Origin: Escherichia coli O127:H6 str. E2348/69
GTDB taxonomy: Bacteria; Pseudomonadota; Gammaproteobacteria; Enterobacterales; Enterobacteriaceae
Length of the DNA: 64,000 nt
Assembly (NCBI RefSeq): GCF_000026545.1
Contig: NC_011601.1
Reading direction: 5' to 3' (one strand)
The first letter of the stretch is position 1, and each line of letters opens with the position of its first letter. The position numbers are program-made. Shown here piece by piece: positions 61,546-64,000 of this stretch.

Positions 61546-64000
61546 TCACTTTTACCCCCTGCGGGGGGCAATAAGTATAAAACCGTTTTTTGATTAAGTG
61601 GTCGGATATGAAAAGGGCAGGGTTTATGTGAAAAATACCTGCGCTTTCTATGAAGACACACAACAGCATCAGGTTATTTATGTTTATACAGTACGTTCCA
61701 AACTGACCTGAATAATCACGAAAATTGCAACAATAAAGAACATTCTTGCCGTGGTGTGAGGTACTCCGGTAAATTGCCTTCCAGGTGCAGACAATGACTA
61801 ACGAAGAACTACAGACAATCGCATTATCCATGCTTGACCACCAGCGCGAAAAAGTATACCAGAAATGCGAGTCTTTGCTTAATCCATGGATTTGCCCCTA
61901 TATTTCCAGCCACCTGTTATCACTTAACCCATTACTGGCCTGCTGCCGTAGATATTCCCGTGGCGAGCGATAACCCAGTGCACTATGCGGATGCCATTCG
62001 TTATAATGCTCGAACGCCTCTGCAAGGTTCTTTGCTGCCGTTAACCCGTCTGGTTTAGGCATGACACTGATGTAGTCACGCTTTATCGTTTTCACGAAGC
62101 GTAAGCGTCAACGGAGCACCGTATTGACGCTTATTTATTGGTGAGAACCACATTCCATGGCAGGAGTTGAGCCTGTACATAGATTTGTGTAATTGTCTGA
62201 TTTTGATATGTTCAATCCAGCATCAAATGAAGGTTAATTTATGGACAAAAAACAGTTACAGGCTCAATCAATACTCCCATGCCTCAAACGCTAACGGCAT
62301 ATTATTTAACAAATCCCGACGCTCACGCCAGTCAGGAATAAACCGATCCATATGCAACCGGAAGCGAGCATTATGGTGACGTTCCAGAAGATGAACCAGT
62401 TCATGCACCAGAATATACTCCAGACACTCCGGCGGCTTCTTAATTAGCTCCAGATTGAGCCAGATTCGTTTTGTTGTAGTGTTACAGGTGCCCCAAAAGG
62501 TTTTCATCTTTTTGATGCCCCAGAATGTTAGGGGAACACCGATTCGGTCCTGCCATTCAGGTAAAAGCTTAGCCACCTGCTGTTTTAGTTCATGTCGATA
62601 AAATTCACTTAACGCCAATGCCTTATTTTCATCACGGGTTCCCGGTTGAACATAAAGCTGGAGCTTATTATTTCCTGCAACTTTTACTTCGTGACGCCCG
62701 TGACGCTCAATCACAAGTAGGCGATATCTTCGGCCCCAAAGATAGTGGCACTCTCCGCTGACCATTTCCCTCTCTGATTGACGAGGCTGTCTGGCGAAAT
62801 CCTGCTGCTGTTTTCTGATCCAGCGAAAGCGTGAAGCAACCGCCATACGAATCGCCGTCTCCGTCATATGTTCCGGCGCTGAAACGCGGACTTTGCCATC
62901 AGGCGGCAGCACGCTGATATGCAGATTCTTAATCGCCTTACGGTTGACCAGCAAGTGTAACGAGCCTATTTGCATGATTGGCATCAGTGATATTCCTTCT
63001 GCTGACGGGCAAGCGCTATCACCTCATCAATATCAATATTATAGCTGGCGGTCTCTTCACGTAATGCGTTGGCAATTTCCCGTTCTTTAAAACGATCGCC
63101 AATCCACTCTGCCCTTTTGGTATAGCGAATCGTCGTATCTATGCGGGTCGCCAGTACCTCGTCGTGGCCGAAGTTATCATAGAAGGCGCGCTTTGCTTGT
63201 GTATCCATGGTGGCAGGGTAGCACGCTCCGGCGGTTTGCTCCGGGCGGATGACCTGTTTACACAAATCGCGGATACGTTCCAGATACTGCTGATAATTGA
63301 GCGCATTTTGTCGGCGAAGGGTAATCAGTTCATCCAGCAGCTGCGACATGCGTCCATAGTATTTTGGGTTAACCGGGTTTTCATCCACGATGGTTTTGCG
63401 CACGTTGTTTTCGATGGTTTCCGCCATCGCATCCTGATTATTACGGATATCATCCGGCAGGGCGACGGTCGCCGCCAAGCCTTTCTCGACAATCAGTTCA
63501 ATCAGACTTAACTCTTCAAAATCCATCAGCACTTCGCTACCATCGGCGCGAACATACATATCCAGTAAATGACGCATAGCGGGTTCAAAGCGCTTCATAT
63601 CCAGAAGATCGCCGCTGGCCAGCTTAATCTCATAGCGTAGTTTTTCGAATTCAGCGACTTCGGCGCGAATGCTCTCTACCTCTTCGGCAGTGTAGCCTGC
63701 TTCCGGCATTTCATTGGCGATGCTGGCATAAGCGCGTAGCAGACGGGCGACGCACTGGTAAAATGTCAGGCGTAGCGCCTCTTTTTCGTTTAACGAAGTC
63801 TGATTCTCTCCTGATTTACCGCAAAAATAGTGCTGATAGTCCTGCAGGCTGCGCGGGGTTTTGACGGGTTCACATAAGCTGCGAACCATCTCCAGCGCGC
63901 TGTCGAGATCCAGTTGCGCCTGCTCCAGCCTGTCTTTCAGCAACCCGGCCACATCGTCCCGATCGTAATCATCAAACGCGCCCGTGGTGTAATCGGTAAT

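What the first reader, a model, noticed from the sequence alone, without database searches (positions are those of the whole stretch)
62268..64000. hsdR-like C-terminus followed by an M48/DUF45 metallopeptidase at the island edge
A HExxH peptidase gene directly follows (and is co-oriented with) a type I restriction R-subunit-like gene that runs off the window. This is a recurrent but little-studied arrangement, and a restriction module at the distal end of a virulence island may help stabilise it. The hsdR call rests on recalled similarity only.
Basis: inference. Interest (0 to 1): 0.3.

Follow-up and report, generated by a model that had tools for sequence, protein, structure and literature searches.

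The report
Tail of a published phage-defence operon
This stretch is the last part of a published anti-phage gene cluster of enteropathogenic E. coli E2348/69: the end of a type I restriction enzyme gene and a small zinc-protease gene that almost always travels with it, whose role has not been tested.

Summary
On the minus strand, window 62984-64000 encodes the last 338 residues of a 1031-aa type I HsdR. Window 62268-62984 encodes a 238-aa YgjP-like (PF01863, formerly DUF45) HExxHx5H zinc metallopeptidase. Its ATG overlaps the hsdR stop codon (TGATG).

The window is E. coli O127:H6 E2348/69. Just beyond its end lie darG, darT, hsdS, hsdM and rptR on the same strand. This is exactly the seven-gene "RRDM" island (RptR-RMS-DarTG2-M48) published by Zhang et al. 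(NAR 2025, PMC12255303), with the same protein accessions. On a plasmid it protects against phages. So the locus is already known.

"Island edge" is an artefact of the window end. The island runs about 61 kb, from a 14-bp serX repeat at window 32152 to serX, 29 kb past the window. RRDM sits in the middle, between IS debris.

What I add: the peptidase goes with HsdR, not with RptR or DarTG.
- 45 of 75 evaluable loci from different species have hsdR adjacent.
- 39 of 39 plasmids with this HsdR C-terminal domain have the peptidase directly downstream.

Its closest solved folds are minigluzincins, then Wss1/Spartan. A dedicated HsdR-directed protease is my preferred reading, but it is unproven (about 0.3).

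The parts
62984..64000 (-). 3' part of hsdR: codons 694-1031 plus the TGA stop of the 1031-aa type I restriction/translocase subunit. This is its all-helical, acidic C-terminal region. The gene continues beyond the window end.
   Evidence: ORF and translation. PADLOC REase_I profile positions 699-1011, E = 2.7e-122. 100% identical to WP_000108733.1. Full-length Pfam domains. PDB sequence match to EcoR124I HsdR over residues 101-696. AF2 predicts all-alpha. pI 4.76.
62268..62984 (-). Gene for a 238-aa soluble, basic YgjP-like (PF01863/DUF45) zinc metallopeptidase (WP_001122107.1), the 'M48' component of RRDM. The stop codon is at 62268-62270.
62373..62405 (-). Codons for the metal-binding and catalytic motif H194-E195-L-V-H198-L-L-E-R-H-H204 (HExxHx5H).
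   Evidence: Read from the sequence. E195 is invariant and H194, H198 and H204 are at least 90% conserved in 53 homologues sharing 35-76% identity.
62982..62998 (-). Translational-coupling junction: AAGGA (62998-62994), 9 nt, then the peptidase ATG (62984-62982), which overlaps the hsdR TGA (62986-62984) by one base.
   Evidence: Read from the sequence. In 39 other species the two ORFs overlap or lie at most 46 bp apart; 34 of the 39 overlap or abut by at most 1 bp.
62101..62267 (.). Conserved 3' flank of the cassette. It includes an approximately 100-bp remnant of the left end of IS1414 (62167-62265). Similarity to other cassette-bearing E. coli stops at about 62101, where an IS3-family fragment begins.

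Best explanation
The segment is the 3' end of one operon, rptR-hsdM-hsdS-darT-darG-hsdR-peptidase. This is the published RRDM anti-phage island of EPEC E2348/69.

Established for the families involved:
- HsdM and HsdS methylate a bipartite target. Together with HsdR they translocate and cut unmodified incoming DNA.
- DarT ADP-ribosylates thymidines in single-stranded DNA, and DarG reverses this.
- RptR represses the operon promoter (published for this locus).

The window holds only the helical C-terminal third of HsdR and the last gene. That gene encodes a soluble, basic, catalytically intact HExxHx5H zinc metallopeptidase of the YgjP-like family. It is translationally coupled to hsdR.

Shown here: the peptidase is a conserved partner of HsdR itself, across bacterial phyla and some archaea. 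It is independent of RptR and DarTG.

Inferred (about 0.3-0.35): it is a dedicated protease acting on its own HsdR. It would remove or inactivate restriction complexes that engage unmodified host DNA. That is the task ClpXP performs for EcoKI ('restriction alleviation'), and a built-in protease would make these mobile systems independent of host proteases.

The stated confidence refers to the identity of the locus, not to this last step.
For: Identity of the locus:
- 100% DNA identity to E2348/69.
- RefSeq annotation of the seven genes.
- My own Pfam checks: HSDR_N/SWI2_SNF2/T1R_D3, Macro, DarT, Methylase_S, N6_Mtase/HsdM_N, HTH_73.
- The same accession numbers and the phage-protection data appear in PMC12255303.

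Link between peptidase and HsdR:
- Among 80 loci from different species, 43 have hsdR directly upstream on the same strand, 2 have it directly downstream, and 5 cannot be judged.
- In an NJ tree the EPEC protein lies in a large clade in which every evaluable member but one (L014) is HsdR-linked.
- On plasmids, 39 of 39 records with a hit of at least 26% identity to this HsdR C-terminal domain have the peptidase ORF immediately downstream.
- 31%-identical peptidases on Klebsiella IncF plasmids also follow hsdR.
- There are no RptR, DarT or DarG homologues in the 80 loci.

Evidence that it is an active enzyme:
- E195 is invariant and H194, H198 and H204 are conserved.

Coupling: TGATG overlap and Shine-Dalgarno motif; overlap or abutment in most other loci.
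Against: - Nobody has tested the peptidase. The published work used only the whole island.
- An AF2 prediction of a fusion (HsdR C-terminus, linker, peptidase) with 29 paired sequences gave pTM 0.37, so no confident complex.
- About 40% of family members are not next to any type I system. They sit among housekeeping genes, so the fold is not specific to restriction.
- From my own memory, not checked here: E. coli K-12 YgjP is catalogued as a weak UTP pyrophosphatase.
- The metalloprotease centre of ArdC, the one zincin tied to type I restriction in the literature, was not needed for its anti-restriction effect.
Confidence: 0.85

Rival explanations
1. The peptidase relieves repression of the island by cleaving the RptR repressor during infection, as CapP cleaves CapH in some CBASS systems.
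Against: No RptR homologue was found in any of the 80 peptidase loci, 22 of which include at least 400 bp upstream of hsdM. The peptidase therefore keeps its position after hsdR without RptR. At best this could be a lineage-specific extra role.
Confidence: 0.07
2. The peptidase is a second-line defence component. Either it destroys phage anti-restriction proteins (Ocr/ArdA type), or it is a latent effector released when HsdR is blocked, as PrrC is released from EcoprrI.
For: RRDM still reduces T7 plating 1000-fold, and the paper's introduction notes that T7 encodes the anti-restriction protein Ocr. The hsdS-hsdR gap of these operons often carries back-up defence genes. The peptidase is tightly linked to HsdR.
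Against: The T7 effect may be due to DarTG2. No toxicity or target is known. The peptidase has no match in PADLOC defence models.
Confidence: 0.12
3. It is not a protease. It is a metal-dependent hydrolase of small molecules (a nucleotide pyrophosphatase, as catalogued for E. coli YgjP), and it is only loosely connected with restriction.
For: The UTP pyrophosphatase label for K-12 YgjP is from memory and was not checked here. Many family members sit among housekeeping genes.
Against: The fold and motif are those of zincin endopeptidases. The linkage to one HsdR type is near-obligate, with gene overlap, across phyla. That is hard to explain for a metabolic enzyme.
Confidence: 0.1
4. One reading: the restriction module acts mainly as an addiction or stabilising element for the virulence island.
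For: A toxin-antitoxin pair (DarTG2) lies inside the operon. The cassette is mobile and flanked by IS elements.
Against: The module lies mid-island, not at its end. The same cassette occurs in other E. coli without the effector genes and in only 247 of 5426 complete genomes. The demonstrated phenotype is phage defence. From general knowledge, type I systems are poor addiction modules because restriction is alleviated when modification is lost.
Confidence: 0.1

Closest known systems
RRDM island (RptR-RMS-DarTG2-M48) of EPEC E2348/69, Zhang et al., Nucleic Acids Res 2025 (PMC12255303)
   Same: It is the same locus: same strain, gene order and protein accessions (HsdR WP_000108733.1, M48 WP_001122107.1).
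   Different: Nothing differs. The window simply holds only its last 1.7 kb. The paper does not address the role of the M48 gene.
EcoR124I (type IC) HsdR, PDB 2w00 and related entries
   Same: It is the best solved sequence relative. Nuclease, motor and domain 3 align (residues 101-696, E = 3e-35). The overall length is similar.
prr locus (EcoprrI type I system with PrrC embedded in it)
   Same: A second defence or toxin module is inserted within a type I operon. Here DarTG2 lies between hsdS and hsdR, and other cargo occupies that slot in 15 of 30 related loci.
   Different: The cargo differs. No peptidase is described for prr (from memory).
ClpXP-dependent restriction alleviation of EcoKI
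   Same: It is the known case in which proteolysis of HsdR protects unmodified host DNA (summarised in PMC12255303 and PMC11109961). It is the functional model for my inference.
   Different: It uses a host AAA+ protease, not a system-encoded zincin. No evidence yet shows that the peptidase here touches HsdR.
Minigluzincins (proabylysin 4jiu, projannalysin 4jix, selecase 4qhf)
   Different: They are proteins of about 105-112 residues with no N-terminal domain. The protein here has an extra basic N-terminal domain of about 117 residues plus a long helix. Proabylysin is auto-inhibited by its own C-terminal tail. Whether the conserved ...W-x-Y tail here does the same is unknown.
Wss1 / Spartan (SprT-like) DNA-protein-crosslink proteases
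   Different: No zinc-binding or DNA-binding subdomain or SUMO/ubiquitin modules were identified. DNA dependence is untested.

Membership tests
Type I restriction-modification R subunit (HsdR) | N-terminal PD-(D/E)xK nuclease domain (HSDR_N) | tested here: met
   PF04313 at residues 6-202, E = 2.9e-41, in the full-length gene, which extends beyond the window.
Type I restriction-modification R subunit (HsdR) | SF2 ATP-dependent translocase motor | tested here: met
   SWI2_SNF2 E = 1.7e-69 and ResIII E = 8.4e-18. Aligns to EcoR124I HsdR.
Type I restriction-modification R subunit (HsdR) | The fragment inside the window belongs to an HsdR profile | tested here: met
   PADLOC REase_I profile positions 699-1011 of 1034, E = 2.7e-122. 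No Pfam or NCBIfam model covers this region.
Type I restriction-modification R subunit (HsdR) | Cognate hsdM and hsdS in the same locus | tested here: met
   hsdS (Methylase_S) and hsdM (N6_Mtase, HsdM_N) lie on the same strand upstream.
Type I restriction-modification R subunit (HsdR) | ATP-dependent restriction of unmodified DNA and a defined methylation motif | not testable with these tools
   Only whole-island phage protection is published. No methylome paper was found.
YgjP-like metallopeptidase domain (Pfam PF01863, former DUF45) | Profile match above the gathering score over the full domain | tested here: met
   208.5 bits against a cut-off of 26, profile positions 5-206 of 207.
YgjP-like metallopeptidase domain (Pfam PF01863, former DUF45) | HExxH plus a third metal ligand, conserved | tested here: met
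   H194, E195, H198 and H204; E195 is invariant and the others are at least 90% conserved in 53 sequences.
YgjP-like metallopeptidase domain (Pfam PF01863, former DUF45) | Zincin catalytic fold | tested here: met
YgjP-like metallopeptidase domain (Pfam PF01863, former DUF45) | Peptidase activity and substrate | not testable with these tools
   No experiment was found in the held literature.
MEROPS M48 proper (Ste24 / HtpX / Oma1 type) | Match to the Peptidase_M48 profile | tested here: not met
MEROPS M48 proper (Ste24 / HtpX / Oma1 type) | Membrane-embedded protease | tested here: not met
   Maximum Kyte-Doolittle hydropathy over 19 residues is 0.57, so no transmembrane segment.
SprT-like / WLM DNA-dependent proteases (Spartan, Wss1) | SprT-like profile match and fold | tested here: inconclusive
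SprT-like / WLM DNA-dependent proteases (Spartan, Wss1) | DNA binding and DNA-dependent activation | not testable with these tools
   Only indirect evidence: the N-terminal domain has pI 11.1, but basicity is family-wide.
RRDM defence island (Zhang et al. 2025) | Seven ORFs in the order rptR-hsdM-hsdS-darT2-darG2-hsdR-M48, with the published accessions | tested here: met

The most novel reading that the evidence does not exclude
The YgjP-like peptidase is a system-encoded protease dedicated to its own HsdR. It would recognise the distinctive acidic C-terminal domain, or the conserved ...Q-x-E-Y tail, of this HsdR class. It would degrade restriction complexes engaged on unmodified host DNA. That would give these widely transferred type I systems a self-contained, ClpXP-independent restriction alleviation. 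The peptidase may itself be kept latent by its own Tyr-terminal tail, as in minigluzincin zymogens.
Probability: 0.3. Interest if true: 0.55.

Novelty: already known. Interest (0 to 1): 0.22.

Why it matters
As a locus it does not change anything. It has been described, named and shown to protect against phages.

The residual value lies in the unassigned seventh gene. A catalytically intact zinc protease is welded to one large class of type I restriction subunits in many phyla, yet no function is on record in the literature I could search.

If it controls HsdR by proteolysis, it would explain how mobile type I systems avoid killing a new, unmethylated host without relying on host ClpXP. It would also add a regulatory layer to a textbook defence system.

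Tried and rejected
- Pfam, NCBIfam and PHROGs searches on the partial ORF gave nothing. Only the PADLOC profile and the full-length gene settled its identity.
- The peptidase has no match in NCBIfam, PADLOC or PHROGs.
- Rfam and the promoter/terminator scan of 61-64 kb gave no RNA family and no convincing terminator after the peptidase.
- An AF2 run of a fusion (HsdR C-terminus, G25 linker, peptidase) with 29 naturally paired sequences, meant to detect a complex, gave pTM 0.37. This is uninformative: no PAE was available, the alignment is shallow and the HsdR fragment is multi-domain.
- I considered ArdC as a precedent for a zincin acting on type I enzymes and dropped it. Its protease centre is dispensable for anti-restriction.
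- The RptR-protease idea is disfavoured by the absence of RptR from all surveyed loci.
- Basic charge as a sign of a restriction-specific DNA-binding role was rejected. Unlinked family members are equally basic.
- Literature searches for DUF45, COG1451, YgjP, M48 or SprT together with hsdR found no functional study.
- The Makarova 2011 defence-island paper is not held.
- No E2348/69 methylome paper was found.

Full report
**What is in the sequence.** Two co-oriented minus-strand ORFs fill the finding's coordinates.

- ORF 62268..62984 encodes 238 aa containing HELVHLLERHH.
- The frame ending at 62984 stays open to the window end, giving 338 codons.
- Reading the bases directly, the upstream stop TGA (62986-62984) and the downstream ATG (62984-62982) share one base (TGATG).
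- An AAGGA motif lies 9 nt before the ATG. This is the classic layout for translational coupling.

**Identity of the two genes.**

The 238-aa protein:
- It matches Pfam YgjP-like (PF01863, the former DUF45) at E = 1.4e-61, and SprT-like only just above its cut-off.
- It has no hit in NCBIfam, PADLOC or PHROGs.

The partial ORF:
- It has no Pfam, NCBIfam or PHROGs hit.
- It matches positions 699-1011 of PADLOC's 1034-position type I REase profile at E = 2.7e-122.

Megablast shows the window is E. coli O127:H6 E2348/69 at 100% identity. In RefSeq the ORF is the end of a 1031-aa HsdR. I checked the whole protein:
- HSDR_N covers residues 6-202, SWI2_SNF2/ResIII covers 252-486, and T1R_D3-like covers 530-685.
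- The best solved relative is EcoR124I HsdR, over residues 101-696.
- The window therefore contains exactly the C-terminal third that Pfam does not model. That explains the empty Pfam result.

**Surroundings.** Beyond the window end, on the same strand, lie darG, darT, hsdS, hsdM (812 aa) and a 79-aa HTH gene. Pfam confirms each one.

**Already published.** Zhang et al. (Nucleic Acids Res 2025, PMC12255303) describe this seven-ORF "RRDM" island (RptR-RMS-DarTG2-M48) from E2348/69, with the same accessions.
- On pBR322 it protects DH5alpha against phages Trib and Baz (more than 10^7-fold), lambda-vir and TB34 (about 10^4-fold) and T7 (10^3-fold).
- RptR represses the island's promoter.
- The M48 gene is only named. 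Its role is not tested.
- The authors leave open how RptR is removed during infection and mention proteolysis as one possibility.

**Position in the island.**
- RefSeq annotation places phoH to the left, and serX tRNA-Ser 29 kb beyond the window end.
- The 14 bp at the 3' end of serX recur once, at window 32152-32165, next to an integrase gene. That bounds an island of about 61 kb.
- The cassette lies about 30 kb from one boundary and about 21 kb from the other. IS100, IS3, IS66 and IS30 debris lies on both sides.
- "Island edge" is therefore an artefact of where the window stops.
- The same seven genes occur in E. coli C4 and O157:H7 strain 7636, next to CDI, Zorya and Ag43/Cah genes and with no effector genes.
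- The hsdR-end-plus-peptidase segment is present in 247 of 5426 complete E. coli genomes.
- Similarity to those strains ends at about window 62101, where an IS3-family fragment begins.

**How general is the arrangement?** The peptidase family is very large: 20,196 representative clusters at E up to 1e-3.

Survey of 80 loci from different species, using my own ORF calls and phmmer with the EPEC proteins:

| Context of the peptidase gene | Loci |
|---|---|
| hsdR immediately upstream, same strand | 43 |
| hsdR immediately downstream | 2 |
| Type I gene nearby | 1 |
| No type I gene detected | 29 |
| Not evaluable | 5 |

- Among the 39 adjacent pairs scored, no gap exceeds 46 bp, and 34 overlap or abut by at most 1 bp.
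- The unlinked copies sit beside unrelated housekeeping genes.
- In an NJ tree without support values, the EPEC protein lies in a large clade whose evaluable members are all HsdR-linked except L014.
- No RptR, DarT or DarG homologue occurs in any of the 80 loci. 22 of those loci include the region upstream of hsdM.

The reciprocal test used plasmids.
- All 39 plasmid records with a hit of at least 26% identity to the HsdR C-terminal fragment have a peptidase ORF directly downstream. Six weaker hits could not be resolved.
- A 31%-identical peptidase on Klebsiella IncF plasmids also follows hsdR, with a 4-bp overlap.

So the peptidase belongs with HsdR. It does not belong with the regulator or the toxin-antitoxin pair.

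**The protein itself.**
- In 53 homologues sharing 35-76% identity, E195 is invariant. H194, H198, H204 and a W-G-x-C motif are at least 90% conserved.
- AF2 gives a confident model (pLDDT 95.2, pTM 0.83). It has a beta-rich N-terminal domain (about residues 1-117), a long helix, and a catalytic half.
- The protein has no hydrophobic segment and is basic: pI 9.96 overall and 11.1 for the N-terminal domain. Basicity is family-wide, so it is not diagnostic.
- "M48" is therefore an annotation label. The protein is a YgjP-like, minigluzincin-type zincin.

**Mechanism.**

Established for these families:
- Type I enzymes methylate self DNA and cut unmodified DNA after ATP-driven translocation.
- DarT ADP-ribosylates single-stranded DNA, and DarG reverses it.
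- RptR represses the promoter.

For the peptidase I favour a protease directed at its own HsdR, a built-in counterpart of ClpXP-dependent restriction alleviation of EcoKI. I put this at about 0.3-0.35. The reasons:
- Near-obligate linkage and coupling to hsdR only.
- Co-occurrence with one HsdR C-terminal domain type.
- Intact catalytic residues.
- Kinship with proteases that act on DNA-bound proteins.
- Spread into lineages, including archaeal genomes, that are unlikely to share one host protease.

This is inference. An AF2 run on a fusion of 29 naturally paired sequences gave pTM 0.37, so it adds no support.

One observation remains unexplained. In the main clade, HsdR ends in ...Q-x-(E/D/G)-Y plus 0-2 residues in 35 of 36 loci, and the Tyr is invariant in the paired alignment. 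The peptidase ends in ...W-x-Y in 19 of 44 linked loci. Proabylysin is a zymogen blocked by its own C-terminal tail sitting in the active-site cleft. Whether these tails matter is untested.

**Rivals.**
- RptR cleavage: disfavoured by the absence of RptR elsewhere.
- A guard or effector against anti-restriction proteins.
- A small-molecule hydrolase.

None of these is excluded outright.

**Verdict.** The locus is already known. Only the seventh gene's function remains open.

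Noticed in passing
window 62167-62265: An approximately 100-bp copy of the left end of IS1414 (IS256 family) abuts the peptidase stop codon. It corresponds to about 75 bp upstream of the transposase plus the first 25 bp of its gene. It is conserved in other cassette-bearing E. coli and recurs beside IS1414 transposases on many plasmids and chromosomes.
   Followed up: partly
window 32152-32165 (and serX, 29 kb beyond the window end; L005:21079-21166): A 14-bp direct repeat, TGGCGGTGAGGGGG, equals the 3' end of serX tRNA-Ser. It lies next to an integrase gene (window 32326-33543) and bounds an island of about 61 kb. The integrase sits at the end far from the tRNA, which suggests a composite or rearranged island.
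   Followed up: partly
L008, L016, L038, L079, L036, L029, L012, L075 (between hsdS and hsdR): The hsdS-hsdR gap is a cargo slot. 15 of 30 related loci carry 0.65-5.4 kb there. Cargo includes Schlafen/AlbA_2-HATPase_c_4 proteins, GmrSD, McrBC with an AAA_5 ATPase, a SMODS/AGS_C (CBASS-type) cyclase and NucS-like nucleases. In EPEC the slot holds DarTG2.
   Followed up: partly
L001:22795-25230 (hsdM, outside the window): HsdM is 812 aa. The methyltransferase domain ends near residue 441 and about 370 C-terminal residues have no Pfam match. Long HsdM proteins (about 740-890 aa) accompany most main-clade peptidase-linked systems, whereas the distant clade has HsdM of about 500 aa.
   Followed up: no
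P0178, P0217; L039:9989-11875: Rare fusions of the YgjP-like domain with a Peptidase_M78 (IrrE/ImmA-like) domain exist. In P0217 a Cro/C1 HTH domain is added. One such fusion (628 aa) sits directly after hsdR in Acetatifactor muris.
   Followed up: partly
window 62987-62998 (HsdR C-terminus) and 62271-62279 (peptidase C-terminus); alignment A2: The extreme C-terminus of HsdR, ...Q-x-E-Y(+0-2 residues), is conserved in 35 of 36 main-clade loci and the Tyr is invariant. The peptidase often ends ...H-E-x-W-x-Y. The meaning is unknown.
   Followed up: partly
window 41858-58300 (annotation via L001 and L004): Effector block upstream of the cassette: an efa1/lifA-like TcdA/TcdB glycosyltransferase gene, nleE, a frameshifted nleB and a frameshifted espL2-type gene, followed by IS1, IS481, IS4, IS110, IS3 and IS100 fragments. 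Several effector genes are pseudogenes in RefSeq.
   Followed up: no
L087 (Klebsiella pneumoniae plasmid p4710_2): 347 Klebsiella plasmid records carry a 31%-identical peptidase. In the one I inspected it overlaps the end of a 1094-aa hsdR by 4 bp, in an hsdM-hsdS-hsdR operon whose hsdS region is interrupted by IS903B.
   Followed up: partly
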